In this document: piece by piece, positions 4,608-62,855 of the stretch | How positions within the stretch are numbered: the first letter of the stretch is position 1 | Layout: each line of letters begins with the position of its first letter | Assembly: GCA_001773215.1 (NCBI GenBank) | Contig: MEWB01000001.1 | Coordinates: 395,052-459,051, forward strand | Source: a candidate division WWE3 bacterium RIFOXYC1_FULL_40_10 | Lineage (GTDB): Bacteria; Patescibacteriota; WWE3; UBA101185; UBA10185 | DNA length: 64,000 bases | Direction: 5' to 3' | Translations under genes and position numbers: made by a program | The notes under the pieces: generated by a model | Told to the model about the DNA's origin: nothing | What the model saw: the letters and a program-made list of their open reading frames with translations, nothing else | The model's database searches: none

Positions 4608-4616
4608 GCTAAAAAA

Positions 4617-4645: not shown

Positions 4646-4653
4646 AGATTCCA

Positions 4654-4974: not shown

Positions 4975-5025
4975 AAGTTATTGAAAGAGTATAGCACACC
5001 TATAGGCCAAACAGCAAACGAAGAG

Positions 5026-5190
5026 CTATTTTTCAAAAACCTTGGTTATCACAGAAATAATATCCTTACCCGACCTTTTGGTAGCTTCGAGTAAAGCGAT
5101 CAGCGATTTCAATGCTTCGTTGTTCTCGTGCAGTTTCAAAATCTCTTGGCTTTTATTGATTTCCGATGGGTTCGACTTTTCGTTTTTCAT
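5026..5190 (-). CDS. small hypothetical protein (54 aa)
   Basis: Own translation MKNEKSNPSEINKSQEILKLHENNEALKSLIALLEATKRSGKDIISVITKVFEK. Helical/coiled character; below the ORF-track cutoff. Confidence 0.25.
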   Translation of the reverse strand: MKNEKSNPSEINKSQEILKLHENNEALKSLIALLEATKRSGKDIISVITKVFEK

Positions 5191-5198
5191 ATAAATAC

Positions 5199-5906: not shown

Positions 5907-6649
5907 TTTAGCGAATAAGTTATTGTCAAAACTTTTGTTGCTTCACCTGTTCCGGGAACCAGCCCCCCACCGCCGCCTGCTCCTCTTCCATAATCACCAA
6001 AAACTTGATTATTATTTGTGTCATACCCCTCAACAATTCTCTGAATCTCCCCTAAAGAAAGGCCAATTCGAGCGGCTAAAATCTCAGCTTTTGCTCTCCC
6101 ATCGCTTAAGGCGTCACTTAATAGTTCGGAATCGTCGATTTTTTTGTTATCAAAAGTAAAGTTTGGCCCACCAAAATTGCTGATATCCAGCTGAGTCAAT
6201 AGTTCGGTAAGTTTATCAACCTGAGAGATATCCCTAACGGTTATGTCGATAGAAATATTTGCATTCCAATCACCAAACCTAGTTTGCCCCGAGTTATTAT
6301 CATAGTATTGATCCTGGTAAATATTTACACTTGTGGTTTTCAGGTCTGCTTCTGGAATTCCGAATTCCTTCAATTTTTCAATCAGCTGATCTGATTTTTC
6401 CTTGGCTTTCTCGGCAACCTCTATCTTGACCGCATTTCTTTCCAAGATACTAGCGTAAAAATTTGCTATCTGGTTTTGCACAACTTTGCTTGATACTCCC
6501 ACAACGGTTACCGTTCTAACTGGCTTGTTATACACATAAAGGAAATAACCACCCAATATAATGAGGAAAGCTACCAATACGGGTATTATCAAGCTCTTAA
6601 TCTTACTAATACATGAAAATATATAATTTCTTATTTTATTAATTAGCAT
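5903..6649 (-). CDS. SIMPL/DUF541-like (YggE-like) secreted/membrane-anchored protein
   Basis: N-terminal TM anchor, repeated beta-rich halves, Gly-rich GRGAGGGGG C-terminal region. 4-bp overlap with the downstream transglycosylase gene. Confidence 0.55.
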   Translation of the reverse strand: MLINKIRNYIFSCISKIKSLIIPVLVAFLIILGGYFLYVYNKPVRTVTVVGVSSKVVQNQIANFYASILERNAVKIEVAEKAKEKSDQLIEKLKEFGIPEADLKTTSVNIYQDQYYDNNSGQTRFGDWNANISIDITVRDISQVDKLTELLTQLDISNFGGPNFTFDNKKIDDSELLSDALSDGRAKAEILAARIGLSLGEIQRIVEGYDTNNNQVFGDYGRGAGGGGGLVPGTGEATKVLTITYSLK

Positions 6650-6700
6650 ATTGTTATGTTAACAAGTGTAACTCTACCTGTATAGTATAATCATAAATAT

Positions 6701-7459
6701 ATGTCGGCTATCAAAACCGCAGCACAAATACAAACGATGAAAGTTGCCGGAAAAATTCTGGGAGAAATTCTAGCCTCTTTAAAATCACATACCAAACCTG
6801 GCAAGCTGGTCTTAGAACTGGAAGACGAATTTATTAGCTTATGTGATAAATTCAAAGTTACTCCAACGTGTAAGGGCTATTCAGAATATGGTCTCAAACC
6901 GTTTCCTACAGGGCTGTGCGTTAGTATTAACAGCCAGGCCGTGCATTGCCCTCCCAAAAAAGACGTTATTATTACTGATACTGATATAGTGACAGTCGAC
7001 ACTGTTATAGGGTATAATGGCCTTCACGTTGATAGCTCTTTTTGCATAGCAATGCCCGGATCCACTACAACCAGAAAGAATATGGCAGTTACAGCCGAAA
7101 AGGCCTTTGATGAGGCTGTTTCCAGGGTTAGGGAGGGCATTAAAACAGGTCTACTTGGATCAAAAATCTATTCTACAGCTAAAATCGGGGGCTTTAATGT
7201 ATTAAGGGACTTTGCCGGCCACGGTATCGGTGAAGAAATGCACGAATGGCCGGATATTACATGCTTCGGAACTAAAAACGAAGGCGTTAAGTTAAAAGCG
7301 GGCATGACGATTTGTATTGAAACATTAATTTGCGAAGGAAACCCTAAAGTAGAAACAAAAGACGGTTGGGAGACCAATATGGCCGATGGCAAGGATTTTT
7401 GCCAGCACGAGCACACTGTACTCGTAACCAGGAACGGATACGAGATACTAACACAATAA
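6701..7459 (+). CDS. map: methionine aminopeptidase, type I
   Basis: 252 aa. Metal-ligand context DTDIVTVD, HGIGEEMHEWP and EHTVLVT match the MetAP pita-bread fold signatures. Confidence 0.9.
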   Translation: MSAIKTAAQIQTMKVAGKILGEILASLKSHTKPGKLVLELEDEFISLCDKFKVTPTCKGYSEYGLKPFPTGLCVSINSQAVHCPPKKDVIITDTDIVTVDTVIGYNGLHVDSSFCIAMPGSTTTRKNMAVTAEKAFDEAVSRVREGIKTGLLGSKIYSTAKIGGFNVLRDFAGHGIGEEMHEWPDITCFGTKNEGVKLKAGMTICIETLICEGNPKVETKDGWETNMADGKDFCQHEHTVLVTRNGYEILTQ

Positions 7460-7461
7460 TT

Positions 7462-8559
7462 ATGAAAGAAAACAAGTTGTTAAAAATACTAGCAAAGTTT
7501 TTCGGCCAAAATGCCGAGCTAAAAGTGTATAAATTCCTCAGATGGGCACTGGTTATAGCCGGTTTGTTAATAATACTTGGCATCCTTTTTCCAACGGCAA
7601 TGACTATATTTTGGAACATTCTCTGGGTAATCCTTTTCTTCTTTGTGTTAATGTTCTTTGGACTAGGGCTTCTAACTATTCTGGGCATGAAAAATGAAGT
7701 AAGCAAAATTCTGGATTTGCTTTTAGAAGGAGGCATGAGCTTTATTGATTTTTTAGATTTCATCAAGGATGTGTGGAAAAAATTCGTTGAGCTTCTGTTA
7801 GAGTTCCTGTTACTAGCCGCCTGGATACTTGCCTATATTGTCTGTGGCATTATTTATATATTAATTCTGCTTTTATATAAAAGCGTAGGCTCTCACTATG
7901 ATGTAACTTTAATGACCATCGGTATCACAATTCTTATGGTGGCCGCTTTTGGCATAATTAGCAAACCCAAAGTCTATGTAGAGGCCGCGAACGTGTGGGC
8001 CGCCAAATTCAAAAAACGATTCCGCCAAGGGATGATAGACGGACTTGAAATAGTATTATTCGTCTTCTTTTTAACTATAGATAGCACAAATCTCTTCTTT
8101 CTACCCCAAGAGTTAAATATTCCATTAAGAGCCGAATTTGGAGACCAGGATTTGATGGTAAAGAGCATGGACTATCATACAAACTTTAAATTCACCCTAA
8201 CCTTACTAATTTTAGCCACAACCTTTGAGGTAATAAGAAACATGCTCAGAGTGGTAGCCTGGGCCAGGTTCTATTACGCCAAAGATATGTTCGAAAACCC
8301 CGAAGCACCTTTTATGCAACTACTAAAAGGATCTCTGCGAAAAAGCTTTAATGACATGAAAAACGACCTTATTAAATTTATCACATTCACAACTGTTCTA
8401 TTCTTCGTTTTCATGTTCTTCCCAAAACTTAAACTCTTTACTCTGCTACTAGCTTCTGTAACTAACCTAGCATTAGACTTGTTTATAAGGGAAAGATTGA
8501 CCGCGCCAAGGGGGGAGGATCTAATTTCCAGAACTATCGCGTGGGTGTTCAGATTATAA
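7462..8559 (+). CDS. polytopic membrane protein of unknown function
   Basis: The ORF-track start at 7366 lies inside map. The first ATG after the map stop (7462, MKENKLL) is taken as the start. Many hydrophobic helices. Confidence 0.55.
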   Translation: MKENKLLKILAKFFGQNAELKVYKFLRWALVIAGLLIILGILFPTAMTIFWNILWVILFFFVLMFFGLGLLTILGMKNEVSKILDLLLEGGMSFIDFLDFIKDVWKKFVELLLEFLLLAAWILAYIVCGIIYILILLLYKSVGSHYDVTLMTIGITILMVAAFGIISKPKVYVEAANVWAAKFKKRFRQGMIDGLEIVLFVFFLTIDSTNLFFLPQELNIPLRAEFGDQDLMVKSMDYHTNFKFTLTLLILATTFEVIRNMLRVVAWARFYYAKDMFENPEAPFMQLLKGSLRKSFNDMKNDLIKFITFTTVLFFVFMFFPKLKLFTLLLASVTNLALDLFIRERLTAPRGEDLISRTIAWVFRL

Positions 8560-9213
8560 CGGTAGGTTCAACAGTTCTTCAGGCTTGCTGATCAAAAAAT
8601 CAGGCTGGTATTGCTCTAATAATTTTCGAGAATTGAGCCCCCACGAAACTGCTATAACCTTGATACCTACTTTTCTAGCGGCCAGAATATCTCTAAAATC
8701 ATCGCCTATATAATAGTCATTATTTGTATCTATGCCATGTTTATCCATTAGTTTCCTTAAGCGGAGATGCTTGTCAAATAATCCTTTAGTCGCCATAACA
8801 TCTTCAAACATATTCATTTTGTTGTTTTCTAAAAACCCCATTACCGTATCTCGGCTATTTATCGTGACAATGTATAGCGGATAATTTCGTTTTCGAAGCT
8901 CCCAAAGAACAGAGGGCATCCCAGAAACAGGTTTGATTTTGGCTAGGTTGTCGGCAAATATTTTCCGAAATTTTAAAAATAACACGGGGATCATTATCAC
9001 CGGAAGGCCTGTAATTTTAACCAGGTCGGTTAACGAATAATCCCTTAGTGCTTCTATACCGACCTCATTAATTTTTTGCTTAACTTGCAAGGGTAATTCG
9101 TTAATAAATGGTTCTAAAAACTCGAATGAATCGGCAATAGTTCCATCAAAATCGAAAATTAGCGAGCTTTGCCTGTTGATACCCTTAATGTGATCCATCG
9201 AAACAGTATACAA
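8554..9213 (-). CDS. HAD-superfamily hydrolase (phosphatase-like)
   Basis: Motif I FDFDGTIADS and motif IV-like YIGDDFRDILAARKVG. Confidence 0.7.
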   Translation of the reverse strand: MYTVSMDHIKGINRQSSLIFDFDGTIADSFEFLEPFINELPLQVKQKINEVGIEALRDYSLTDLVKITGLPVIMIPVLFLKFRKIFADNLAKIKPVSGMPSVLWELRKRNYPLYIVTINSRDTVMGFLENNKMNMFEDVMATKGLFDKHLRLRKLMDKHGIDTNNDYYIGDDFRDILAARKVGIKVIAVSWGLNSRKLLEQYQPDFLISKPEELLNLPL

Positions 9214-9234
9214 TATTTGTTATATAATGGGCTA

Positions 9235-9741
9235 ATGAACTCAAGAAGACAAAAACTTATCGAAACCAACACCAAGTATCATATGGTGATTCATTTGGTA
9301 ATTGGGGTGTTTATTGCCATTTTTGTACATAGACTATTTCCTTTTTCCTCTTTTTCTAAGACTCTAGTATTAAGCCTTTTTGGGTCATGGCTTCCGGATA
9401 TCGATCATTTTATTTTCTTTTATATCTATGGCCGTAATAACGAGTATTCAAAAATCGTTAGAGCTTTCTTAAGACAATTTAGACTCAAGGAATTTGCTAG
9501 TTTTGCTCAAAATAATCACAAGGAATTAACCGGACTTTACTCTCATAATCTTGCCAGTACTTTTATAGCTGCACTTATCTTTTTCGTACTGGCTTTGGAT
9601 GTACACGGGTATAAATCCGTAACCTTTGCCTTAGCAATAACTATGCATTTTATTTACGATATAGTTGAAGATTTGCTGTTTTTTGGACATCTGAATCCAA
9701 ATTGGTTTCTTCGTTTTAATAAACCAAAACACCAACTGTAG
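9235..9741 (+). CDS. membrane-bound metal-dependent hydrolase-like protein (DUF457/YdjM-like)
   Basis: His-rich membrane protein (HLVIG, WLPDIDH, SHNLAS, HFIYD). Start is uncertain: 9169, 9235 and 9283 are candidate ATGs; 9169 overlaps the HAD gene. Confidence 0.45.
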   Translation: MNSRRQKLIETNTKYHMVIHLVIGVFIAIFVHRLFPFSSFSKTLVLSLFGSWLPDIDHFIFFYIYGRNNEYSKIVRAFLRQFRLKEFASFAQNNHKELTGLYSHNLASTFIAALIFFVLALDVHGYKSVTFALAITMHFIYDIVEDLLFFGHLNPNWFLRFNKPKHQL

Positions 9742-9780
9742 TATCTGGACTTTTCCCTCCTTTTTAGTAATAATATAACA

Positions 9781-10116
9781 GTGAAGATGATACTAAGGTT
9801 AGTCGCCTTAACTCTAGCTATAATAGTAGGTTCGTACATTTTACCGGGTATAGCTATTGCTGATTATCCAACTGCTATTATTTTTGCTATAACTCTGGGG
9901 GTACTCAACACTTTTTTAAGGCCTATTATCTCAATTTTCACCTTGCCGATAACTCTAATAACTTTAGGGCTTTTCTCGTTGGTTATTAACGCTCTGATGG
10001 TCATTCTAGCCTCCTACATTGTTCCCGGGGTACAGATTTCAAGCTTTTTGGACGCTGTAATATTTTGCGTTGTCATCTCACTAGTCACTTCCTTTTTAAA
10101 CATGCTTACAAAGTAG
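9781..10116 (+). CDS. small 4-TM membrane protein, phage-holin-4_2/YvlD (DUF360)-like
   Basis: 111 aa, GTG start, four hydrophobic helices with the composition and spacing seen in YvlD-type proteins. Confidence 0.45.
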   Translation: MKMILRLVALTLAIIVGSYILPGIAIADYPTAIIFAITLGVLNTFLRPIISIFTLPITLITLGLFSLVINALMVILASYIVPGVQISSFLDAVIFCVVISLVTSFLNMLTK

Positions 10117-10126
10117 GGAGGAAGTT

Positions 10127-10345
10127 ATGAAAGGTGAATATTGCCCTCAGTGCGGCATAATGATGGTACCTGTGGGTCATATTATGTGCGAGGGGGAGAG
10201 ATGCATAGAGTATGAGTGTTCGTTCTGCAAGGATTCTTTCGCCTTGTATTGTGGCATCTTCGTATATATTGAAGTCGACGAGGATACTAAAAGCCCCAAG
10301 AGTAAATCTGTTGGGGCTCTTTTTTTGAAGTCGATGTTACAATAA
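10127..10345 (+). CDS. small Cys-rich zinc-ribbon protein
   Basis: CPQCG..CEGERCIEYECSFC motifs. Strong SD (GGGAGGAAGTTATG). Confidence 0.45.
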   Translation: MKGEYCPQCGIMMVPVGHIMCEGERCIEYECSFCKDSFALYCGIFVYIEVDEDTKSPKSKSVGALFLKSMLQ

Positions 10346-10349
10346 CACT

Positions 10350-11066
10350 GTGGCATTAAAAGCGTATAAGAAAAAACTCGAATATTCATACTCTCTTGGG
10401 ATTTTTCCTACAATAGAGCTGTTGCAAACTCATCCAGAAAAAGTTATCTCGATCCTTTTAGCATCAGGAGCTGAGGATACAAAAGGAATCTCGGAAATTA
10501 AGAAGCTGTGTGACAAACACAAGATTACATACGATATCGCCGATAAAGCGATAGCAAGAATTGCTATAAAGGAAAAAACTCAAGTCGCCGGGGCTTTTGA
10601 GAAATACACTCAGCCTCTTATCCGAAACGAACATCATGTTGTATTAGTAAATCCCTCTTTACCGGGGAATGTAGGAACAATAATTAGAACTATGGTAGGC
10701 TTTGGGATTACAAATTTAGCTCTAATTAGGCCCTGTATCGACTTTTTTGATCCTATGACAGTAAGAGCAGCTATGGGGGCAGGCTTTAAAGCAAATTTTG
10801 AGTACTTTTTGAGCTTTGACGATTATAGAAAAAAATTTTCCGAAAATACTATTTATCCATTTGTACTAAATGGAAAAAATGAGTTGAAAGATGTGATTTT
10901 TAAGAAGCCGGCAACATTGCTTTTTGGAAACGAAGGAAGCGGGTTACACCCCGACTTCAACTCCTCTGAGACATCTATAAGAATAAGTCACTCTAATGAA
11001 ATTGAATCATTAAACTTATCTACCGCCGCCGGGTTGGCCTTATACAGCTTATATAATCAACATTGA
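10350..11066 (+). CDS. TrmH/SpoU-family RNA 2'-O-methyltransferase
   Basis: SPOUT motifs VLVNPSLPGNVGTIIRT, LLFGNEGSGL and SLNLSTAAGLALY. Confidence 0.8.
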   Translation: MALKAYKKKLEYSYSLGIFPTIELLQTHPEKVISILLASGAEDTKGISEIKKLCDKHKITYDIADKAIARIAIKEKTQVAGAFEKYTQPLIRNEHHVVLVNPSLPGNVGTIIRTMVGFGITNLALIRPCIDFFDPMTVRAAMGAGFKANFEYFLSFDDYRKKFSENTIYPFVLNGKNELKDVIFKKPATLLFGNEGSGLHPDFNSSETSIRISHSNEIESLNLSTAAGLALYSLYNQH

Positions 11067-11120
11067 AACATACCCTGTAGTTTGATAAAATAGCCTAAAT
11101 ATATATAAAAGGAGACAATA

Positions 11121-11711
11121 ATGATCAAAGACGCTAAGTCGAGAGAAAAGATGTATGGTTTGGTGTTTGTTCTTGCAATTACATCCTTAATAAGCTTTCT
11201 TTTTGCCTCTGTCGTAAGTGGATCTCCCAAAGAAACTATCGGTAACATGTACTTGCCGGCTAAAGATCCTACTATGATTGGCCGACTACCTGAGGAATTA
11301 AGAAGGCAGGCGTTATATCAAGAGATTGGTGAACAAAGCATCAAGGAAGCGATCGTCGAGTTTCCCAACTGTGATTTTTCGCTGCGCCGTTGTCCGACGG
11401 AAATCCTCTATAAGGTTACTGGTAGCGATGCATGGAGATATTCTGTTACATATGAACGGCTCGTTGGCGACTACCCGACATGGCTTCAGCGTACTATTGT
11501 GCAGTATGATGTAGAGTACCTGCCCGAGGACAACAGTACAATGGTCATGGTTGTCGCCAGGAAAAGCACAGCGGGAACGGTGTTAAAGATTGTGGCGTAC
11601 TACTTAATAATGACAGCTGTACTTTCTTTGGTCTATGGAATTTGGATTGTGCACCTGGTCAGAAAGTTATTTAATATTCCTGAACCACCTATAAGCCCAG
11701 ATATGTTATAA
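11121..11711 (+). CDS. hypothetical membrane-anchored protein (N- and C-terminal TM helices)
   Basis: Strong SD AAAAGGAGACAATAATG, signal/TM MYGLVFVLAITSLISFLFA, C-terminal TM. Confidence 0.5.
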   Translation: MIKDAKSREKMYGLVFVLAITSLISFLFASVVSGSPKETIGNMYLPAKDPTMIGRLPEELRRQALYQEIGEQSIKEAIVEFPNCDFSLRRCPTEILYKVTGSDAWRYSVTYERLVGDYPTWLQRTIVQYDVEYLPEDNSTMVMVVARKSTAGTVLKIVAYYLIMTAVLSLVYGIWIVHLVRKLFNIPEPPISPDML

Positions 11712-11718
11712 AACACTT

Positions 11719-11754
11719 GGCGCCTGTGATTTGTTGCAGGCGCTATTTTATTTC
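11719..11754 (+). terminator. rho-independent terminator candidate
   Basis: ggcgcctg-tgatttgtt-gcaggcgc hairpin followed by tattttattt. Confidence 0.55.
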
Positions 11755-56258: not shown

Positions 56259-56335
56259 GGGGCCGTAGCTCAGTTGGTTAGAGCGCTTCCCTGTCACGGA
56301 AGAGGTCGCGGGTTCGAGACCCGTCGGTCCCGCCA
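56259..56335 (+). tRNA. tRNA-Asp (anticodon GTC)
   Basis: GGGGCCGTAGCTCAGTTGGTTAGAGCGCTTCCCTGTCACGGAAGAGGTCGCGGGTTCGAGACCCGTCGGTCCCGCCA. CCA encoded. Confidence 0.9.
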
Positions 56336-56465
56336 GTTCTTACCTTCACTCTCTATATCCACCGTATCCCTACTATAGGTTGACGCCATGCCTTTTCAAT
56401 GCTATACTCTGCCAAGCTCTCTAATCAAATCCCTAGGCCATGTGGCCATTAAAAGGAGTAATGCA

Positions 56466-57014
56466 ATGAAAAAGCAGTTTATGCTGTATGTCGAGTACGT
56501 ATTTGCACAGTGGAACTACTTAGTGATGCTAATGCTGGGCGGAGTTTTTTTTGGTGTCTGGCTTGTGACCATAACCATCCCAAACACTACAGTTAAGTTG
56601 ATTGGCATCGCCTTTTTGCTTTCGGGATGTATATCATCCGGAATAGCAATTTATAATCCGCTAAGCTACTTCAAAAACGAGAAATATCGCTGTAAACGCG
56701 CTCATCTTGAGGAGTTGTCTCACAAAATGGACTGGCTGGTTGCGAACATGTGCAAGGCCTGCAAGAAAGGCTCACTGCCAAAGACACAGGCAAGCGACCT
56801 GATCTTGTTTTTAATCTCCTACTATATGGCAGGCGGAGATCTGGAGCATAAGATCGAGGAACTAAACAAAAGTTCTTACATCCTGCTCTTCACCACAAAT
56901 ACTCAGGGTACCTCGGTACATATCGAGTCCAAGCCAGGAGCACCTGCCATGATGATCACAGTTTGCATCGGAAATGATCTGAAACATTTGGCGGAAGGCG
57001 AATTTTGTAGTTAG
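56466..57014 (+). CDS. hypothetical membrane protein
   Basis: The track ORF starts at 56388, adjacent to the tRNA. Internal start MKKQF (56466) precedes two TM helices. CxxC present. Confidence 0.4.
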   Translation: MKKQFMLYVEYVFAQWNYLVMLMLGGVFFGVWLVTITIPNTTVKLIGIAFLLSGCISSGIAIYNPLSYFKNEKYRCKRAHLEELSHKMDWLVANMCKACKKGSLPKTQASDLILFLISYYMAGGDLEHKIEELNKSSYILLFTTNTQGTSVHIESKPGAPAMMITVCIGNDLKHLAEGEFCS

Positions 57015-57040
57015 GAACTAATTATTAGTAGAGAGCCAGG

Positions 57041-57080
57041 GGTAAGCGTCCATATGGACATTGCTTACCTCTTTTTTTTT
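57041..57080 (+). terminator. rho-independent terminator
   Basis: ggtaagc-gtccatatggacatt-gcttacc followed by a T9 run. Confidence 0.6.
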
Positions 57081-57142
57081 GCCTTATTTCTTCCACACTG
57101 ATAGAATTTCAACAAAGAGCTAATAGACTAAAGGAGGAAAGT

Positions 57143-57721
57143 ATGCTTCACATCATAGGTCACGATTGGCTTGCAGTTGCATGCGATCAAACTGATTGGA
57201 CCCGCGAGGCACTGGCCAATTCCATCGCAGAACACTTTGATACTATTGCTGGCAAAAGCTTTGAGGAGGTCTGCAGTGATATCTTGGAGGACCGAAGTAG
57301 ACGATTTGAACTTGTAGATTTCCTGAAAAACAGCATTGACCAACTTAAGGCCACCCCCCGCTGCAGAATTCTAAGCACGTTGGAGCTTAAATCCGGAGGA
57401 ACTTTGGTCTTCCTATGTTTTGGCAAGCAGATAACCAGAGATAGAATAGTTGAAACGATAGTGGAAGCCGGTTATAAAACACATTTGGTCACTAAAGATC
57501 ATGACTTGAACTTTCTTCCAGAGGAAGGGATCGGTGTTGTCATGCTAAGGGGGCTACTAGATACACCGGATACTCTCCTACTAGATAAACTGGATTGGAG
57601 TGAGGCGAGTGGATCTGAAGTATTTAAGTGGGTTCGAGAGCAGTCAACTTCAGGAATTTCTGGCCACTACACTACCGAAGAAGAAAGGAAGTTGCTTAGG
57701 AAATATTTGTTTCTACACTAG
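57143..57721 (+). CDS. hypothetical protein (192 aa)
   Basis: Strong SD AAAGGAGGAAAGTATG. No recognised motif. Confidence 0.5.
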   Translation: MLHIIGHDWLAVACDQTDWTREALANSIAEHFDTIAGKSFEEVCSDILEDRSRRFELVDFLKNSIDQLKATPRCRILSTLELKSGGTLVFLCFGKQITRDRIVETIVEAGYKTHLVTKDHDLNFLPEEGIGVVMLRGLLDTPDTLLLDKLDWSEASGSEVFKWVREQSTSGISGHYTTEEERKLLRKYLFLH

Positions 57722-57911
57722 TTAAGCAAAGCAAGGGTAATATAACATCCTTGCTTTTTCATTTTCCAACAACTAAACACTTTCATTTGAATAATATTTC
57801 TGGTATATACTACTTACAACTCAAATATATTTAATTGAGCTATCTTGCCCTTCTTGCCCAAAAACTACTATGTAACTGTTTTTTGACTAAGGGGGTGCTA
57901 ATAATTAGAAA

Positions 57912-58400
57912 ATGGCGGAAAATAAAGAAAACATTGATACACAAAAAGACGGACTAGCCTTAGTCGTGGGGGGACTTTTTATATTGGCTTTAGTTTTTGC
58001 AGCTTACAACTACTTTTCAAAAGGAAAAAACACTGAACAAACTACAACAACAACCGGTGAAACTGCGCAGGAAGTAGTTGCAGAGGCACCTAGCGAAGAC
58101 ACTGCAGAAGAACCGGTGGGGGATATTAACGGTGACGGGCTAGCTGATAATACCTTAGGAACAGAGCAGGCCAAATTGGAGTTAGGGGGATGGGTAGCTA
58201 ATAATTACAATTCCGGGGAAATTAAAGCAGGTAATTACACTGTAAAAAGCGGTGACACACTTTGGGAAATCGCGGAGGCGGCATACGGTAACGGGGCTGA
58301 TTGGGTAAAAATCCTAGATGCGAATAAAGGGTCTATTGATTTCTTACCAAATGGGTCACAAGCGTTGATAAGAACCGGTCAGGTTTTAGTATTGCCTTAA
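57912..58400 (+). CDS. LysM-domain protein with N-terminal TM anchor
   Basis: C-terminal YTVKSGDTLWEIAEAAYGNGADWVKILDAN..LIRTGQVLVLP is a LysM consensus. Confidence 0.75.
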   Translation: MAENKENIDTQKDGLALVVGGLFILALVFAAYNYFSKGKNTEQTTTTTGETAQEVVAEAPSEDTAEEPVGDINGDGLADNTLGTEQAKLELGGWVANNYNSGEIKAGNYTVKSGDTLWEIAEAAYGNGADWVKILDANKGSIDFLPNGSQALIRTGQVLVLP

Positions 58401-58431
58401 CTGCTCATTTAAATAGATAGCTTGCAAGCTC

Positions 58432-58464
58432 AAGGAGGGCCGTCTGGTGGAAGCGGCCCTCCTT
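58432..58464 (+). terminator. GC-rich hairpin (terminator-like, weak U-tract)
   Basis: aaggagggccg-tctggtggaag-cggccctcctt. Confidence 0.4.
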
Positions 58465-58492
58465 GTGTTGTGTTGATATAATTAAAACGTAT

Positions 58493-58567
58493 GCGGGCGT
58501 GGCTTAGTGGTAAAGCGTCTCCTTCCCAAGGAGAAGATCGCGGGTTCGAATCCCGTCGCCCGCTCCA
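58493..58567 (+). tRNA. tRNA-Gly (anticodon CCC)
   Basis: GCGGGCGTGGCTTAGTGGTAAAGCGTCTCCTTCCCAAGGAGAAGATCGCGGGTTCGAATCCCGTCGCCCGCTCCA. CCA encoded. Confidence 0.9.
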
Positions 58568-58722
58568 TAGCGTTTGGTTTTCGAAAACCTCTAATTCTGC
58601 CCCCTAAAACAAGCTTTTCCCTAGTTTGAGCCTAAATTTCGAGAAGACTTTCGTTAGTCTCAGCAATTTTATACTGGAAACCGGAGTCAGATCTATATTT
58701 TTTTCTGAGATATAATAGTTAA

Positions 58723-59232
58723 GTGAAAATTTACGTCGATAATAACATCCTATCTGCAATCATCGGAAACCAGTTCACTGTCGATGATGGGAACGCAATG
58801 CAAAAATTAGCTTTGAGTGATCATGAGTTTATTACTTCACAAATCACAAAGCAGGAAATGGATAAAGCTACCGTGCCTAAGATAAAAGGGGCTGCTCTGT
58901 TTATTTATAAAATATTCGGAGGAGAGAAGTTTCTGAACAAAGAGACTTATTCTGCATCCGGATTCGGGGATGCTCTTTTTGGAGCAGTTCCTTGGGGAGG
59001 CGGAGAAGCAGAACAGCCATCTTTATCTCTTCTAAGACAAGCCTTTGAACCCGATGACGCACGACACATTTTCCAAGCGCTTTCTAGTCACTCTGACTTT
59101 TTTCTCACGCTAGATGAAAAGACTATTCTTAAAAGATACAGATCAAATTATATGAATATGCAAGCTTTTTGTACAAAGGGCAAACTGAAAATTGTGAATC
59201 CAAAAGAACTAATAAAGGAGCTTCAACTCTAA
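58723..59232 (+). CDS. hypothetical protein, possibly PIN-like nuclease fold
   Basis: N-terminal MKIYVDNNILSAIIG resembles a PIN first strand/Asp. No other support; low confidence. Confidence 0.35.
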   Translation: MKIYVDNNILSAIIGNQFTVDDGNAMQKLALSDHEFITSQITKQEMDKATVPKIKGAALFIYKIFGGEKFLNKETYSASGFGDALFGAVPWGGGEAEQPSLSLLRQAFEPDDARHIFQALSSHSDFFLTLDEKTILKRYRSNYMNMQAFCTKGKLKIVNPKELIKELQL

Positions 59233-59259
59233 GCTTTTCCAACTATTTATCCTGTGAGT

Positions 59260-59386
59260 AATGATTGACTGCTCGTGAAAGGCGATCTCTGTGGCTAAGA
59301 TGGATCACAAACTAGTATGATACCATCAGTTCTCTAAAAGTAAGATACCCTCATCACAGAAATCATTTGGTAGCAGTAGTATGTCA
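59260..59386 (+). repeat. copy A of a ~105-125 bp structured direct repeat
   Basis: Shares aatgatt..ATCTCTG(T/C)GGCTAAG(A/G)TGGATCACAA..CCATCAG.TC.CTAAAAAG..TCACAG.AGA.ATCATT.GGTA..TAGTAT.TCA with 61120-61225. Confidence 0.6.
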
Positions 59387-59420
59387 ATTTGTCTCGCCTT
59401 TTTCTCCCCAAAGTTATAAA

Positions 59421-60155
59421 ATGTTAGTACATATGTGGACTAAGCATGACATTATTAAAGAGCTTCAAAGGTACGCTAAAGAGATTGGCAAAACTCCAAG
59501 CCAAAAAATATTTTTCGACAATACCGAGGTTGGAATATATGATCGAATGAGGTTTTGGCCTAACTATGGTGCACTTGTGCGTGAGGCTGGATTAACCCCT
59601 AACGAGTTTGATAAAACCAAATACAATCATGATCAACTATGTAGACTGTTTATTCGTGTTGTTCGTGAAGAAGGCAAATGGCCAACAAGAGGCATTTTAG
59701 ATGTTAAACATCATGCAGATCATAGTTTTCCAGACTCATCTACGTTTTACAAGAAACTTGGTTTGACTGGTGAATTAGCAAAAACTATCTTAATATTTGT
59801 CAATGAAAAACGTGGATACAGGGACATCATTGATACTTGCAATTCAGTGATTAAGGAATACGAAGATAGCAGTTTATTCTCAGAAGGTGATGTAGTTCCA
59901 GGTTATGTATATTTAGGTAAACAGAACGGAAAATATAAGATAGGCAAATCAAAAGACCCTGATCGTCGTAGAGAAGATATTACACTTTTAGGCCCTGAGC
60001 CTTTCGAACTAATACATGTGATAAAAACAGATGACATGAACGGTATTGAAAAATATTGGCATGAAAGATTTAAATCAAAACACAAAAGAGCTGAATGGTT
60101 TAGCCTATCCAGAACTGACATCAGCGATTTCAAGCAATGGAAGAAAATCGCTTAA
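59421..60155 (+). CDS. T5orf172 / GIY-YIG-like domain protein
   Basis: C-terminal GYVYLGKQNGKYKIGKSKDPDRRREDI..ELIHVIKTDD..IEKYWHERFKSKHKRAEWFSLSRTDI matches the T5orf172 pattern. Track ORF starts at 59367, inside the repeat; 59421 (MLVHMW) is preferred. Confidence 0.6.
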   Translation: MLVHMWTKHDIIKELQRYAKEIGKTPSQKIFFDNTEVGIYDRMRFWPNYGALVREAGLTPNEFDKTKYNHDQLCRLFIRVVREEGKWPTRGILDVKHHADHSFPDSSTFYKKLGLTGELAKTILIFVNEKRGYRDIIDTCNSVIKEYEDSSLFSEGDVVPGYVYLGKQNGKYKIGKSKDPDRRREDITLLGPEPFELIHVIKTDDMNGIEKYWHERFKSKHKRAEWFSLSRTDISDFKQWKKIA

Positions 60156-60437
60156 CTAGGAATATTTCCTTTGATTAAACTTTCCCTTTTTCAGAAAATC
60201 AACAAAAACCTCCTGAAACATACAGAAATCAACACTCTTTAGATAGTTTTTTAAAGCAGTCAGTTGTAGAATTAGTTCTGGAGTAACGGAAGACCGAAGG
60301 ATGATTTTGACATCAGTGGGAAATGTCATATCAGATTGGTTTAGAAGATATGATTTGATATTGCCCTCCAGGCTGGGCAGGTTCGAGCAAAGTACGGTCA
60401 CCAGCTCAATTGCGAAATGGTTTTGTGTTTTTCCCAA
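60156..60437 (-). CDS. hypothetical protein (93 aa)
   Basis: ORF only; abuts the upstream gene's stop. Confidence 0.3.
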   Translation of the reverse strand: MGKTQNHFAIELVTVLCSNLPSLEGNIKSYLLNQSDMTFPTDVKIILRSSVTPELILQLTALKNYLKSVDFCMFQEVFVDFLKKGKFNQRKYS

Positions 60438-60536
60438 TTTTCTTCAAGAAATCAATCTTTTCCCGAGTTCTAGCTACTATTTTTAACAATTTGTTGTTAG
60501 CCTGGAAGTTTTGGTTAATGGTGACGAGAGTCGGAC

Positions 60537-61118
60537 CTAAATATATTTAAGAAGAACTGGAATTTTGGTAACACCACCAACCTCCTTCATAAAGTGGCCT
60601 TTATTGTGTTCTACGATAATCTTTGCCCCCAGCTTTTCTCTATAAGCCAATTTGTTTTGTTCCAAGGGAACCCATGGATCATTGTCTGAGAAAAGAGCAA
60701 CAAAAACATTTGCTAAATGTTTCACTTTCTCATAATTAATTGGTGTTTCGTACCAAGATTGTACGATCTTGTGGTCTTCGGGTAATGGCAATGCTTCCTT
60801 GCTCAATATTTCCCAGCCAGCAACAAGTATGACTTTATCAACCTTTTCATTTTGTTGATCTAAGTATCTTATGATTGTCTGGCAACCCATTGAGTGCCCG
60901 ATCAGAATATCGGTTTGCCTTAGTTTACCGAGACTATTTGTCATTTCAGCTAACCATTCGGACATCACTGGATAATCTGGATTTGGCATAGCTGGTGTTG
61001 AAGCAGAATACCCTCTACTTTCAAGTTCTTTCAATGCCCACGGAAACCAATCTTGGTCATCACGACCAGTCCACCCATGAATAATAAATGCTCTTTTTCT
61101 TTCCATATCTTTTGTCAA
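60537..61118 (-). CDS. alpha/beta serine hydrolase, YdeN/RBBP9-like
   Basis: RAFIIHGWTG, nucleophile elbow GHSMGCQ. TTG start at 61118; an ATG is at 61106. Confidence 0.7.
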   Translation of the reverse strand: MTKDMERKRAFIIHGWTGRDDQDWFPWALKELESRGYSASTPAMPNPDYPVMSEWLAEMTNSLGKLRQTDILIGHSMGCQTIIRYLDQQNEKVDKVILVAGWEILSKEALPLPEDHKIVQSWYETPINYEKVKHLANVFVALFSDNDPWVPLEQNKLAYREKLGAKIIVEHNKGHFMKEVGGVTKIPVLLKYI

Positions 61119-61119
61119 A

Positions 61120-61225
61120 AATGATTCTTCAATCTCTGCGGCTAAGGTGGATCACAATTTGTGCCATCAGCTCCCTAAAAAGGGTACGTTCACAGCAGAG
61201 ATCATTCGGTACGCCTAGTATATCA
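61120..61225 (+). repeat. copy B of the structured direct repeat
   Basis: See copy A. Stem ATCTCTGC/GCAGAGAT here versus TCTGTG/CACAGA in copy A. Confidence 0.6.
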
Positions 61226-61353
61226 CTTCTTCAGATCCTTGAAGCTATTTATTTTTTAGGTGACGCATCAGAGATCCTAACTCTAATCCTAGTTCGGGGG
61301 TGATATAATCAAAAAGGTTCGAGCTGAGTACCGTCGCCCGCTCCATAAAGAGC

Positions 61354-62004
61354 TTACTCAATCACAAACAACACGTATCTGCCGTATAAATAGTTGTAAG
61401 TCAGCTCCGAATAGCTTTCCATGTGAACAAGATTCCAGCCTTTTTTGGCAACCAAATTTCGCCACCACTCAGCAGTGTGGTACGGATGAATGTAAAACTC
61501 CCAATTTCCAAGACAATCGCTTATCGACACTATTAGTTTTTCAAAAATGTTCCTGTAGGTATCTTCGATAATTATTACTCTATTTGCAACTCGTTTAGCC
61601 TCCTCCAAAACCCTCAAGCTGTCGGCACAGTGGTGCAATACATGCACAATTAGAGCAGTCTCAAAAGAGTTATCTTTAAAGGGAAAATCACTTCCGTTGT
61701 ATACCCTAACATTTGTACCTTCGAACAAGGCAACGTCGGCAATATCCAAGCCCGAAACAAAAAAGCCTTTTTTAGTCAAAAATTTGGATATGCCCCCGGC
61801 CCCAACTCCCACATCTAATAGCTTTTTACCCTTTATAAATTTGGCAATTCGGTCAAAAGTCGTCTTGGATTTGATATCAACATATCCAGTAACAATTCTG
61901 CTCAGCAAATCCTTGCCTTCGTAAATAACCTTATTTTTTCTAAACAGCTTTGTTACACTAGAGATTGGCATATGTGTAAAATCCAGTACAATAGTAGCAC
62001 ACAA
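61354..62004 (-). CDS. class I SAM-dependent methyltransferase
   Basis: LLDVGVGAGGISKFLTKKGFFVSGLDIAD (motif I) and a downstream acidic motif. Confidence 0.75.
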   Translation of the reverse strand: MCATIVLDFTHMPISSVTKLFRKNKVIYEGKDLLSRIVTGYVDIKSKTTFDRIAKFIKGKKLLDVGVGAGGISKFLTKKGFFVSGLDIADVALFEGTNVRVYNGSDFPFKDNSFETALIVHVLHHCADSLRVLEEAKRVANRVIIIEDTYRNIFEKLIVSISDCLGNWEFYIHPYHTAEWWRNLVAKKGWNLVHMESYSELTYNYLYGRYVLFVIE

Positions 62005-62039
62005 ACCCCATCTCTGATATCATCCAAATGCCACCCTAG

Positions 62040-62113
62040 CTCAATGGAAGAGCAGATGTATCGTAAACATCCGACAAGAGTTCGATTCTCTTGGGTGGCT
62101 CCACTGCATGATA
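62040..62113 (+). tRNA. tRNA-Thr (anticodon CGT)
   Basis: GCCACCCTAGCTCAATGGAAGAGCAGATGTATCGTAAACATCCGACAAGAGTTCGATTCTCTTGGGTGGCTCCA. Anticodon stem GATGT/ACATC, loop ATCGTAA. Confidence 0.85.
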
Positions 62114-62123
62114 CAATTTACCT

Positions 62124-62855
62124 ATGGCAAGAAAAAAGACCCTAATTAAATCAGACCTAACCGAAGAGGAATTAGCCCAACGTTTATTTTTAAGCCTACT
62201 CACAACTGTAGCTATAGTTACACTTTCGGGTATTTCTATCCTCTTTTTTGGGCCTAAGATAGGAGCTTTCTTCGGACTGCTCTCCAGCCACCGCAACGAT
62301 AGACCCAATATTCCCACTGCGCGGCCTAACCCGCCCCTATTTACAAACCTTCCTGAGGCCACAAACCAGGAAAAATTAACTGTTTCGGGAACATCCCAAC
62401 CGGGATACACGGTAAAACTATATGTTAACGGTCCTGAAAAGGCTTCGGCTATTGTAGGCGCTGATGGCGGATTTACATTTGCAGACATAAAACTTAATAC
62501 CGGTAGAAATAGTGTTTTTGCAAAGGCAGTTAATCAAAGCAACGAGGAAAGTTTAAATACCGAATACTACACGATTATGCTTGATACAAGAAAACCAAAA
62601 ATTGATCTGGAAACTCCACAGAACGATGACACAGTAAGGAATTTGGATAAAAGAGTGCTTGTTAAAGGGAAGATTGACGAGCAGGTGACGTTAACCATAA
62701 ACAAGAACTCTGTAATCATTCAGGAAGACGGCAACTTTGACTATCTTTTGGGAGTTAAAGAGGGCTTGAACGAAATCTCCATTGAGGCAACCGATAAAGC
62801 CGGGAATAAAGTTGAAGAAAAAATTACAATTAGGTATGAGAATCGCGGAATTTAG
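62124..62855 (+). CDS. membrane-anchored protein with Ig-like beta-rich extracytoplasmic region
   Basis: N-terminal TM, then beta-rich repeats (TVSGTSQPGYTVKLYVNG.., ..KVLVKGKIDEQVTLTINKNSV..). The antisense ORF 62036-62488 overlaps the tRNA and is rejected. Confidence 0.5.
   Translation: MARKKTLIKSDLTEEELAQRLFLSLLTTVAIVTLSGISILFFGPKIGAFFGLLSSHRNDRPNIPTARPNPPLFTNLPEATNQEKLTVSGTSQPGYTVKLYVNGPEKASAIVGADGGFTFADIKLNTGRNSVFAKAVNQSNEESLNTEYYTIMLDTRKPKIDLETPQNDDTVRNLDKRVLVKGKIDEQVTLTINKNSVIIQEDGNFDYLLGVKEGLNEISIEATDKAGNKVEEKITIRYENRGI

What the first reader, a model, noticed from the sequence alone, without database searches (positions are those of the whole stretch)
59260..61225. Pair of ~105-125 bp direct repeats with compensatory stem changes flanking a T5orf172/GIY-YIG-like gene cassette downstream of tRNA-Gly
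Copies at 59260-59386 and 61120-61225 share an ordered set of conserved blocks: aatgatt, ATCTCTG(T/C)GG, CTAAG(A/G)TGGATCACAA, CCATCAG, CTAAAAAG, TCACAG.AGA.ATCATT.GGTA, TAGTAT.TCA. Two helices are preserved through paired substitutions. One is CTCTGTG/CACAGA versus CTCTGC/GCAGAG. The other is GATGG/CCATC versus GGTGG/CCATC, an A-U to G-U change. That pattern argues for a structured RNA or structured DNA site rather than random duplication.

The repeats bracket a 1.7-kb segment encoding a T5orf172 (GIY-YIG-related) domain protein, a small ORF and a YdeN-like hydrolase. They may be a novel cis-regulatory or sRNA family, or the terminal repeats of a small mobile cassette.
Basis: seen in the sequence. 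Interest (0 to 1): 0.6.

Follow-up and report, generated by a model that had tools for sequence, protein, structure and literature searches.

The report
New promoter-driven RNA heading tRNA-Gly cassettes
The two repeats are copies of an undescribed, widely conserved ~82-nt structured RNA of ultrasmall (CPR/Microgenomates) bacteria; it is read from the opposite strand from its own promoter and sits at the head of swappable, often anti-phage, gene cassettes stacked next to glycine-tRNA genes.

Summary
The repeat pair is real and non-random. It belongs to a large family: 24 species genomes and at least 80 metagenome contigs, 114 covariance-model hits, nearly all Microgenomates/CPR. There were no matches in Rfam 15, in viral contigs, or in a literature string search.

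The RNA strand is the window's minus strand (61209->61129 and 59370->59282). An extended -10 promoter (TGnTAnnnT) lies at a fixed distance in almost every copy.

The fold is a three-way junction. Pairing is 91%, and covariation is modest but above controls.

Each copy ends a conserved block made of a small ORF "X", sometimes an inserted T5orf172 gene, the promoter and the RNA. Unrelated cargo genes abut the block within 30 nt, on either strand. The first tRNA beyond the cargo is tRNA-Gly in 42 of 45 cases, always convergent.

The window therefore holds two stacked cassettes, not one 1.7-kb cassette with terminal repeats.

The function is inferred only. The most likely role is a portable promoter plus structured leader for cargo.

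The parts
61129..61209 (-). RNA motif copy B (subtype 2), about 81 nt. It is a three-way junction and lies directly upstream of the hydrolase start codon at 61106.
   Evidence: Covariance model R1 scores 88.3 bits, E=1.5e-19. Alignment A3. The ORF starts 22 nt after the motif.
61217..61225 (-). Extended -10 promoter of copy B (TGATATACT on the minus strand). The inferred transcription start is the A at 61210.
   Evidence: Position-specific conservation T-16 G-15 n T-13 A-12 nnn T-8 in 73-82 of 83 distinct upstream regions; an exact TGnTAnnnT at that fixed place in 66 of 83.
59282..59370 (-). RNA motif copy A (subtype 1, with a lengthened P3 hairpin), 89 nt. No same-strand gene follows. It points at the 3' end of the convergent 169-aa ORF.
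   Evidence: Model R1 scores 82.2 bits, E=5.8e-18. Alignment A3. Context.
59378..59386 (-). Extended -10 promoter of copy A (TGACATACT; C instead of T at -13). The inferred start is the A at 59371.
   Evidence: Same register as the family promoter.
60156..60437 (-). ORF X, 93 aa with a TTG start. It is the conserved partner of the RNA on the same strand. Its codons ELVTV... overlap a tRNA-3'-end-like stretch.
   Evidence: A tblastn copy lies upstream, in the same orientation, of 67 of 109 motif hits, either 11-19 nt or 360-1200 nt away. Synonymous to non-synonymous differences are 16279:33995 in frame, against 3463-11752 synonymous in the other five frames. Codon-position differences are 25167/16719/33052, and indels are in frame. 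No Pfam or PHROG match.
61245..61346 (-). Shortened X-like ORF (MERATVLSSNLFDYITPELGLELGSLMRHLKNK*) upstream of copy B. Its first codons are the reverse complement of a copy of the tRNA-Gly 3' end.
   Evidence: Translation. Direct repeat D7, 58548-58569 / 61326-61347, 91% over 22 nt.
60380..60407 (+). Degenerate tRNA-3'-end-like segment (GGTTCGAGC...ACCAGCTC) at the start of X. It marks the junction between the two cassettes.
   Evidence: Repeat D1, regex map. Conservation among loci stops exactly here.
61316..61347 (+). Copy of the tRNA-Gly 3' end (CCGTCGCCCGCTCCATA). It is the far boundary of the island.
   Evidence: Repeats D1 and D7; map.
60409..60545 (-). Element Y, about 140 nt. In other genomes the same sequence lies directly downstream of real tRNA-Gly genes. 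Here it sits between the hydrolase stop and X, and it supplies X's start codon.
   Evidence: blastn gives 79-84% identity to the tRNA-Gly 3' flanks of L008, L006, L014, L063 and L074; L008 sequence; map.
58568..58720 (-). Y-like flank directly downstream of the intact tRNA-Gly(CCC).
   Evidence: Map. Similarity to Y was seen by reading the sequence.
58493..58567 (+). tRNA-Gly(CCC), the anchor of the island, convergent with both RNA copies.
   Evidence: ARAGORN and Rfam. tRNA-Gly is the first downstream tRNA for 42 of 45 motif instances that have any tRNA within 5 kb, always convergent.
58723..59232 (+). Cargo of cassette 1: a 169-aa ORF (only a weak PIN_12 hit), convergent with RNA-A.
   Evidence: In the syntenic Gottesmanbacteria locus L113 the same slot holds an Mrr_cat gene.
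60537..61106 (-). Cargo of cassette 2: a YdeN-type serine hydrolase, co-directional with RNA-B.
   Evidence: Pfam PF06821, 4.5e-23.
59433..60155 (+). T5orf172/MUG113 (GIY-YIG-like) gene with an HNH_repeat, inserted between X and the promoter of RNA-A. It is divergent from the RNA.
   Evidence: Pfam. The same arrangement occurs in L007, L086, L096, L112 and L113. Homologues at 37-55% identity have no motif nearby.
59278..60408 (-). The conserved block (RNA-A, its promoter, T5orf172, X) with sharp homology edges.
   Evidence: 88-90% identity over about 1130 nt to L086 and L096/L050, 92.5% to L112 and 82% to L113, with unrelated flanks.

Best explanation
Each repeat is a gene for a previously undescribed structured RNA of Microgenomates (Patescibacteria/CPR). 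It is about 82 nt long and is read from the window's minus strand.

Transcription comes from the RNA's own extended -10 promoter, and the transcript starts at ACCGAAUGAUC.... The RNA folds into a three-way junction:
- P1, an 11-bp closing stem (GAUCUCUGUGG / CCACAGAGAUC).
- P2, a short U-rich hairpin that tolerates insertions.
- P3, GAUGG-CAC...GUG-AU-CCAUC.
- Junction sequences that are almost invariant.

The RNA is the last element of a conserved backbone block: a tRNA-3'-end-like junction, then small ORF X, then optionally an inserted selfish gene, then the promoter, then the RNA. Unrelated cargo genes begin, or end if convergent, within 30 nt of the last base pair of P1. Such units are stacked next to tRNA-Gly genes.

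Proposed mechanism (inferred, not shown):
- The promoter plus RNA is a portable expression module. It transcribes into the cargo and supplies a structured 5' leader that stabilises, or gates translation of, cargo mRNAs that mostly lack a Shine-Dalgarno sequence.
- When cargo is convergent, the module yields a short stand-alone or antisense RNA.
- The conserved block also provides the homology, or the site, by which cassettes are exchanged between genomes and between tRNA-Gly loci.

In this window, cassette 1 is Y-like, ORF169, RNA-A, T5orf172 and X. Cassette 2 is Y, hydrolase, RNA-B and X-short.
For: Shown:
- Family size and taxonomy. 24 of 25 genome hits carry the whole motif, almost all in Microgenomates MAGs. 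There are 80 metagenome loci, which is the return cap, and 114 covariance-model hits with E values from 1e-24 to 5e-4.
- Promoter. TGnTAnnnT lies at a fixed distance, the spacer positions are not conserved, and U-A follows before CCGAAU. tRNA-Gly in the window has the same promoter layout (sequence).
- Structure. 91.3% of cells are paired, against 48% or less when partners are slid. 14 pairs show double changes, against 7.1 in shuffles. 0 of 500 shuffles reach any of the five measures. Hairpin lengths vary in P3 and extra hairpins are inserted next to P2, while the stems are kept. The minimum free energy is lower on the minus strand in 62 of 85 sequences.
- Cargo junction. Of 75 instances with enough downstream sequence, 46 have a same-strand ORF of at least 100 aa starting 2-30 nt after the motif, and only 17 of those have an SD-like sequence. 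Another 24 have a convergent ORF whose stop lies within -4 to 25 nt.
- Cargo diversity. Cargo is unrelated between loci and partly defence-like.
- Linkage to X and to tRNA-Gly, and the array maps.
- Block mobility. The same block, 82-92% identical, sits at tRNA-Gly(CCC) with different cargo in L113 and at tRNA-Gly(UCC) with a four-gene cargo in L112.
Against: - No transcript data exist. The promoter and the strand are inferred from sequence conservation only.
- Wobble evidence does not settle the strand. In P1 there are 88 G.U cells on the minus strand against 62 A.C cells (which would be G.U on the plus strand). In P3 the counts are 17 against 29.
- P2 is poorly supported: one of its pairs is unpaired in 43 of 90 sequences.
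- Most of the motif is nearly invariant, so covariation is limited. The sequences were gathered with patterns taken from the motif itself.
- A third of the copies have no co-directional gene, so a purely cis-acting role cannot be general.
- No conserved terminator or expression platform was found.
- Cargo functions share no theme that would suggest a ligand.
- No recombinase was found that could move the cassettes (this was a crude test).
Confidence: 0.55

Rival explanations
1. It is a stand-alone, trans-acting small RNA, possibly working with the small protein X as an RNP or as a toxin/antitoxin-like pair. Its closeness to cargo start codons would then only reflect the tight gene packing of CPR genomes.
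For: - It has its own promoter.
- 24 of 75 copies face a convergent gene and 5 have no adjacent ORF.
- The loop and junction sequences are almost invariant, as expected for a protein- or target-binding RNA.
- Linkage and co-orientation with X are tight: 67 of 109 hits. In one subgroup X's stop codon lies inside the RNA's -10 box.
- Some copies have a U-rich stretch after P1.
Against: - There is no consistent terminator.
- 61% of copies run straight into a co-directional ORF within 30 nt.
- X is rarely called as a gene: 11 clusters among 5.8 billion proteins. Its structure model is of low confidence, pLDDT 63.
- No target complementarity was found.
Confidence: 0.2
2. It is mainly a DNA-level site: the cassette junction of an integron-like capture system. 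It would fold in single-stranded DNA, like an attC site, or be recognised by a recombinase or homing nuclease. Any transcription would be secondary.
For: - Homology between blocks ends exactly at the last P1 pair, and cargo abuts it in either orientation: 70 of 75 instances within 30 nt.
- Units are repeated in one orientation along arrays.
- Wobble-type mismatches occur on both strands in similar numbers, as expected if neither RNA strand is selected.
- Homing-endonuclease-type genes (T5orf172, small GIY-YIG, Bro-N-like) are inserted in or near the blocks.
- A direct repeat of the tRNA-Gly 3' end bounds the island.
Against: - The conservation pattern just upstream is that of a sigma-70 extended -10 box, at a fixed distance from an invariant start. 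A recombination site does not need this.
- The motif has no RYYYAAC/GTTRRRY core sites at its ends.
- Its sequence is conserved across candidate phyla-level groups, unlike attC sites.
- No integrase was found in about 0.7 Mb of neighbouring sequence, nor among the gene clusters.
- T5orf172 is not linked to the motif outside one subfamily.
Confidence: 0.13
3. One reading: the two copies are the terminal direct repeats of one small mobile cassette of 1.7 kb carrying T5orf172, a small ORF and the hydrolase.
For: The two copies are direct repeats about 1.85 kb apart in an island next to a tRNA gene.
Against: - Most loci carry one copy per unit, and pairs are spaced variably.
- The segment between the copies is not a unit. 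59278-60408 recurs elsewhere without the hydrolase, and the syntenic locus L113 has RNA-A, T5orf172 and X but no second copy.
- The two copies belong to two different subtypes, each conserved across many genomes.
- There are no target-site duplications.
Confidence: 0.02
4. It is a ligand-sensing riboswitch or a self-cleaving ribozyme of a new class that controls or processes the cargo mRNAs.
For: - It is a compact three-way junction with invariant junction nucleotides.
- It lies in the 5' UTR in 61% of cases.
- RNAalifold finds an alternative, mutually exclusive pairing: UCUCU/AGAGA and CUGAUGGC/GCCACAG.
- There are multiple copies per genome region next to variable genes, as is common for small ribozymes.
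Against: - The downstream genes have no common function.
- The alternative fold has no covariation: 0 of 12 pairs with double changes.
- The hammerhead core (CUGANGA ... GAAA) is not met.
- No Rfam riboswitch or ribozyme model matches, even at E values up to 10.
Confidence: 0.08

Closest known systems
Integron gene-cassette arrays with attC sites (for example the Vibrio cholerae repeats). This comparison rests on my own knowledge of integrons.
   Same: - A conserved, imperfectly palindromic repeat separates unrelated, tightly packed single genes.
- The repeats keep one orientation along the array.
- Cargo is occasionally inverted.
- Arrays differ between close relatives.
   Different: - No IntI integrase or attI was seen.
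- The spacer is a 350-1100-bp block containing an ORF, a promoter and a transcribed RNA, not a 60-140-bp attC.
- The motif has no R''/R' core sites.
- Each unit has its own promoter instead of a single Pc.
- The sequence is conserved across distant lineages.
- The array is anchored at tRNA-Gly genes.
Genomic islands or integrative elements at tRNA genes, including small cargo-carrying elements such as the Prochlorococcus tycheposons. This comparison rests on my own knowledge.
   Same: - The island lies at the 3' end of a tRNA gene.
- A direct repeat of the tRNA 3' end bounds it (58548-58569 / 61326-61347).
- Units are stacked in tandem.
- Cargo is defence-like and accessory.
- Content varies at a syntenic site.
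   Different: - No integrase or replication module lies in or near the units.
- The internal junctions are only tRNA-like and are part of an ORF.
- The hallmark is a conserved structured RNA with its own promoter.
Structured 5' leader RNAs, 'orphan' riboswitch candidates and mRNA-stabilising 5' stem-loops.
   Same: It is a promoter-proximal, conserved multi-stem structure immediately upstream of start codons.
   Different: - The downstream genes are functionally unrelated.
- A third of the copies have no co-directional gene.
- No expression platform is evident.
- No Rfam family matches.
Non-coding RNAs encoded at the ends of mobile elements (TnpB/IscB omega-RNAs, IS110 bridge RNAs). This comparison rests on my own knowledge.
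   Same: It is a conserved structured RNA lying exactly at the edge of a mobile or exchangeable DNA block.
   Different: - No TnpB, IscB or IS110 gene is adjacent.
- The only nuclease-like neighbour (T5orf172) is not linked to the RNA.
- The loops are invariant rather than carrying variable guide segments.

Membership tests
Any Rfam 15 family (4227 models) | A match to a curated covariance model | tested here: not met
   The whole-window scan at gathering thresholds found only tRNAs. An E<=10 scan of 58300-62300 and of six short loci that carry the motif gave only tRNAs and chance-level hits elsewhere.
Integron attC site / cassette array | An IntI-type tyrosine recombinase next to the array | tested here: inconclusive
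   No tyrosine-recombinase box II signature was found in ORFs of at least 150 aa in the window or in about 110 loci, but this was a crude regex. There is no integrase among the 30 largest neighbour-gene clusters. A full Pfam scan of all neighbours was not run.
Integron attC site / cassette array | Inverse core sites RYYYAAC ... GTTRRRY at the ends of the repeat | tested here: not met
   The motif ends are GATCTCTGTGG / CCACAGAGATC (alignment A3). No such cores lie at the homology edges.
Integron attC site / cassette array | Promoterless cassettes expressed from one upstream Pc | tested here: not met
   Every unit carries its own conserved extended -10 box.
tRNA-gene-targeting integrative island | A direct repeat of the tRNA 3' end at the distal boundary | tested here: met
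   Repeat D7: 58548-58569 and 61326-61347, 20 of 22 identical. The internal junction at 60380-60407, and the junction in L113, are only loosely tRNA-like.
tRNA-gene-targeting integrative island | An integrase encoded within the element | tested here: not met
   The window island encodes ORF169, T5orf172, X, the hydrolase and X-short only.
tRNA-gene-targeting integrative island | Content that varies at the same tRNA site in related genomes | tested here: met
   L113 has the same synteny (tRNA-Asp, LysM, tRNA-Gly CCC ... tRNA-Thr CGT, Wzy_C) but an Mrr_cat cargo and one unit instead of two.
Riboswitch / cis-regulatory leader | Consistent placement in the 5' UTR of co-directional genes | tested here: inconclusive
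   46 of 75 copies are placed this way, but 24 of 75 face a convergent gene.
Riboswitch / cis-regulatory leader | A functionally coherent set of regulated genes | tested here: not met
   The cargo includes a membrane-protein family, NUDIX, MFS, EEP, an alpha/beta hydrolase, an AAA_15/21 ATPase, a TIR-like protein, an EcoRI methylase, a Ser/Thr kinase, DUF5677 and many proteins with no match.
Riboswitch / cis-regulatory leader | Ligand binding with a switchable expression platform | not testable with these tools
   Only an alternative pairing without covariation was found.
Hammerhead ribozyme | The core CUGANGA - stem II - GAAA - stem III - UH | tested here: not met
   The sequence reads CUGAUGG, in which GAUGG is paired, and stem P3 is followed by UUAG, not GAAA. 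No Rfam hammerhead hit.
   Single copies are the rule. The bracketed segment is not conserved as a unit. No target-site duplication is seen at the block edges.
Mobile-element guide RNA (omega-RNA, bridge RNA) | Obligate adjacency to the effector gene (TnpB, IscB, IS110 recombinase) | tested here: not met
   No such genes appear among the neighbours. T5orf172 homologues in L106-L111 lack the motif.

The most novel reading that the evidence does not exclude
The block of X ORF, promoter and RNA could be the working part of an integrase-free gene-capture system specific to CPR bacteria, a functional analogue of integrons.

In this reading the structured RNA, or the same sequence folded as DNA, defines the insertion point for cargo at the last base pair of P1. 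With X and the tRNA-like junction, it would direct units into tRNA-Gly genes.

A weaker variant is that the RNA is a new ribozyme or sensor that arms defence cargo.
Probability: 0.08. Interest if true: 0.9.

Novelty: new variant of a known kind. Interest (0 to 1): 0.68.

Why it matters
Patescibacteria/CPR make up a large share of bacterial diversity, yet almost nothing is known about their RNA-based regulation or about how their tiny genomes gain and exchange accessory genes.

This finding adds three things:
- A new, abundant RNA family that is easy to recognise, together with a defined promoter.
- A marker for hypervariable islands at tRNA-Gly genes that are partly loaded with defence genes.
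- A modular cassette architecture, with sharp junctions and no visible recombinase, that can be tested in metatranscriptomes and strain-resolved metagenomes.

If the module proves to be a portable promoter plus leader, it would also be a natural expression cassette for the genetic tools now being developed for these organisms.

Tried and rejected
- **Known RNA family.** Three Rfam scans were negative. A full-text search for six diagnostic sequence strings found no papers, and two keyword searches found nothing relevant.
- **Phage origin.** There were no pattern matches in 2.9 million viral contigs.
- **The RNA as partner of the T5orf172 nuclease.** Rejected. Homologues at 37-55% identity in other contexts have no motif within 4 kb.
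- **The motif as a degenerate or antisense tRNA-Gly copy.** This was suggested by GTGGCTAAGATGG resembling a D-arm. Local alignment scores against 46 tRNA-Gly genes (mean 17.5) are no better than against other tRNAs (16.2) or against shuffled motifs (15.9, sd 1.4). Rejected.
- **The alternative fold proposed by RNAalifold.** It has no covariation.
- **Using G.U versus A.C counts to fix the strand.** Inconclusive.
It is specific to this window.
- **A simple -35/-10 scan.** It did not flag the promoters because they are of the extended -10 type without a -35 box.
- **The function of X.** No Pfam or PHROG match. The AlphaFold model is all-helical but has pLDDT 63, too low for a fold search.
- **Integrase search.** A regex found none, but the test is crude.
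- **Classical attP x attB integration as the origin of the internal junctions.** The X-start sequence does not match the local tRNA-Gly 3' end in L113 or at 60380-60407. Only the outermost repeat fits.
Full report
**Observation**

The two copies exist as described. The 26-nt core occurs only at these two places in the window, and none is expected by chance. tRNA-Gly(CCC) lies at 58493-58567. The genes between the copies are a T5orf172/MUG113 protein with an HNH_repeat and a YdeN-type serine hydrolase.

**A large family, not a local duplication**

A degenerate pattern taken from the core found 25 places in one-genome-per-species contigs. Of these, 24 carry the whole motif of about 95 nt. Almost all are Microgenomates MAGs: Gottesman-, Woese-, Ames-, Shapiro-, Collier-, Blackburn- and Pacebacteria. 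A few bins are labelled Gammaproteobacteria.

Viral contigs gave nothing.

A covariance model built from 25 sequences found 114 matches in 100 sources, with E values from 1e-24 to 5e-4. Several loci hold two copies 1-3 kb apart, and the window holds only the two known copies.

Rfam 15 has no counterpart, even at E values up to 10. A text search for diagnostic sequence strings found no paper.

**Strand and promoter**

In 83 distinct upstream regions the positions T-16, G-15, T-13, A-12 and T-8 are each conserved in 73-82 sequences. The positions between them vary freely. They are followed by U-2, A-1 and an invariant CCGAAUGAUC. An exact TGnTAnnnT at that fixed place occurs in 66 of 83 regions.

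This is the contact pattern of an extended -10 promoter, and it lies on the window's minus strand. The tRNA-Gly gene of the window has the same layout, TGATATAAT five bases before the mature 5' end.

The RNAs are therefore 61209->61129 (copy B) and 59370->59282 (copy A).

Wobble statistics do not decide the strand. P1 has 88 G.U cells on the minus strand against 62 A.C cells, and P3 has 17 against 29. Folding energy is lower on the minus strand in 62 of 85 sequences.

**Structure**

The model is a three-way junction:
- P1 has 11 pairs.
- P2 has 3-4 pairs and a U-rich loop. It is the site of extra hairpins in L007, L009 and L033.
- P3 has 5+3 pairs with an AU bulge. Its tip varies: GNRA-like tetraloops in subtype 1, longer stems in others, and a lengthened one in window copy A.

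On 90 distinct sequences, 91.3% of cells pair, against 48% or less when the partners are slid. Fourteen pairs show double changes, against 7.1 in shuffles. No shuffle out of 500 reaches any of the measures.

There are limits to this evidence. Much of the motif is invariant, P2 is weak, and the sequences were gathered with motif-derived patterns. An alternative pairing found by RNAalifold has no covariation.

**Surroundings**

- *Downstream of the motif.* Of 75 instances with enough sequence, 46 have a co-directional ORF of at least 100 aa that starts 2-30 nt after P1. Only 17 of those have an SD-like sequence. Another 24 have a convergent ORF whose stop lies within -4 to 25 nt.
- *Cargo.* The cargo genes are unrelated between loci. 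They include a recurrent membrane-protein family, NUDIX, MFS, EEP, an alpha/beta hydrolase, an AriA/PtuA-like AAA ATPase, a TIR-like protein, an EcoRI-type methylase, a PD-T4-6-like kinase, DUF5677 and many proteins without any match.
- *Upstream of the motif.* A conserved element X lies on the same strand in 67 of 109 hits. It is either 11-19 nt away or 360-1200 nt away with a divergent gene in between: T5orf172, a Bro-N-like gene and others.
- *X looks protein-coding.* Differences by codon position are 25167/16719/33052. The synonymous share is far higher in frame than in the other five frames, and indels are in frame. Against this, X is rarely called as a gene, has no family match, and gives only a low-confidence helical model.
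- *The start of X.* It overlaps a tRNA-3'-end-like stretch. Conservation among loci stops exactly there.
- *Element Y.* Y is the conserved 3' flank of genuine tRNA-Gly genes.
- *tRNA-Gly.* The first tRNA beyond the cargo is tRNA-Gly in 42 of 45 cases (UCC 20, CCC 18, GCC 4), always convergent with the RNA.
- *Array maps.* They show units of X, promoter, RNA and cargo repeated in one orientation and ending at Y and tRNA-Gly.

**The window**

Read on the + strand, the region contains, in order:
1. tRNA-Gly (58493-58567).
2. A Y-like flank.
3. ORF169 as cargo 1.
4. RNA-A.
5. T5orf172.
6. X (60437->60156) with the tRNA-like junction at 60380-60407.
7. Y (60409-60545).
8. The hydrolase as cargo 2.
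9. RNA-B.
10. A shortened X (61346->61245), whose first codons are a copy of the tRNA-Gly 3' end.

The repeat 58548-58569 / 61326-61347, 20 of 22 identical, bounds the island.

The block 59278-60408 recurs with unrelated flanks at 88-90% identity in L086 and L096, at 92.5% in L112 and at 82% in L113.

L113 is the syntenic locus of a Gottesmanbacteria genome. It has the same tRNA-Asp, LysM, tRNA-Gly, tRNA-Thr and Wzy_C frame. It carries an Mrr_cat cargo instead of ORF169 and has no second unit. L112 carries the block at tRNA-Gly(UCC) with a four-gene cargo.

So the segment between the two copies is not a unit, and the copies are not its terminal repeats. T5orf172 is an incidental insertion: its homologues at 37-55% identity sit in other contexts without the motif.

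**Mechanism**

What is shown: a conserved, structured sequence with a promoter-like box lies at the sharp edge between a conserved block and variable cargo, next to tRNA-Gly genes.

What is inferred, in order of likelihood:
- It is transcribed from the minus strand and serves as a portable promoter plus structured leader for cargo. When cargo is convergent it gives a short RNA. The block would also provide the homology or the site for cassette exchange (confidence 0.55).
- It is a trans-acting small RNA, perhaps working with X (0.20).
- It is a DNA-level cassette junction comparable to attC (0.13).
- It is a new riboswitch or ribozyme (0.08).

No integrase was seen. A classical attP x attB origin fits only the outermost repeat.

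**Comparison and novelty**

The arrangement works like an integron array, or like a tRNA-linked island of small cargo elements. It fails the defining tests of both: there is no IntI and no attC core sites, each unit has its own promoter, and there is no internal integrase. As an RNA it matches no curated family. I therefore file it as a new variant of known kinds: a new structured RNA family embedded in an unusual cassette architecture.

**Dead ends**

A tRNA-derived origin of the motif was tested and rejected.

Noticed in passing
window 60156-60437 (-); also L003-L105: The 'small ORF' X is conserved in most loci and shows a coding-type substitution pattern and in-frame indels. It has no conserved start codon of its own. 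Its first conserved codons (ELVTV / ERVTV) are the reverse complement of a tRNA-3'-end-like sequence, and the start codon is supplied by the neighbouring Y element. Gene callers almost never call it: 11 clusters among 5.8 billion proteins.
   Followed up: partly
window 60409-60545 and 58568-58720; L008 5195-5335; L113 8522-8660: Element Y, the conserved flank downstream of tRNA-Gly genes, contains an inverted tRNA-3'-half-like piece at its cargo-proximal end (for example GGTTCGATTCCCGTTACCCGTA in L113) and a TTAGCCTGGA motif. That motif recurs, inverted, inside X.
   Followed up: no
L052, L056, L047, L059, L073, L078, L085, L091, L101: the 50-60 nt upstream of X: About a dozen loci have an iteron-like spacer with repeated TGTAAC / TGTAC / TGTCAC words between a divergent gene's start codon and the start of X. 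It may be a protein-binding region.
   Followed up: no
L029, ORF of 416 aa about 370-1620 nt upstream of the motif (cluster CL0): A DDE (rve-type, IS481-like by its sequence look) transposase is inserted into X and reads in frame into the rest of X.
   Followed up: no
window 61205->61176 and 59366->59334 (-), inside the RNA: The RNA contains a conserved AUG 5 nt from the inferred start and an in-frame UAG in the P2 loop (MISVVKVSYF in subtype 1, MISAVNVPF in subtype 2). The 3-nt length difference between the subtypes keeps the frame. It could be a leader peptide or a coincidence. L014 lacks the AUG.
   Followed up: partly
many subtype-1 copies, directly after P1 (for example L016 2291-2305): A small extra hairpin GCCC-UUCG-GGGU follows P1 and contains the only SD-like sequence (GGGG) before the start codon of a recurrent membrane-protein cargo family (MKKNGI...). 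It may be a cargo-specific translational element.
   Followed up: no
L109 2680-4741: A T5orf172/MUG113 homologue sits directly downstream of a group II intron reverse transcriptase (RVT_1, GIIM). This is in keeping with a selfish, mobile lifestyle for this gene family.
   Followed up: no
window 56259-62103: The frame of tRNA-Asp(GTC), a LysM protein, tRNA-Gly(CCC), the island and tRNA-Thr(CGT), followed by a Glucodextran_B-like protein and a Wzy_C ligase, is syntenic with Gottesmanbacteria contigs (L113, L038, L036). The window therefore most likely comes from a Gottesmanbacteria-like Microgenomates genome. Housekeeping genes there are too diverged for blastn, while the RNA/T5orf172/X block is 82% identical.
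   Followed up: partly
L009, L013, L015, L017, L018, L022: Several MAGs that carry the motif and typical CPR neighbours are labelled Gammaproteobacteria or Pseudomonadales in their records. These are probably mis-binned or mislabelled contigs.
   Followed up: no
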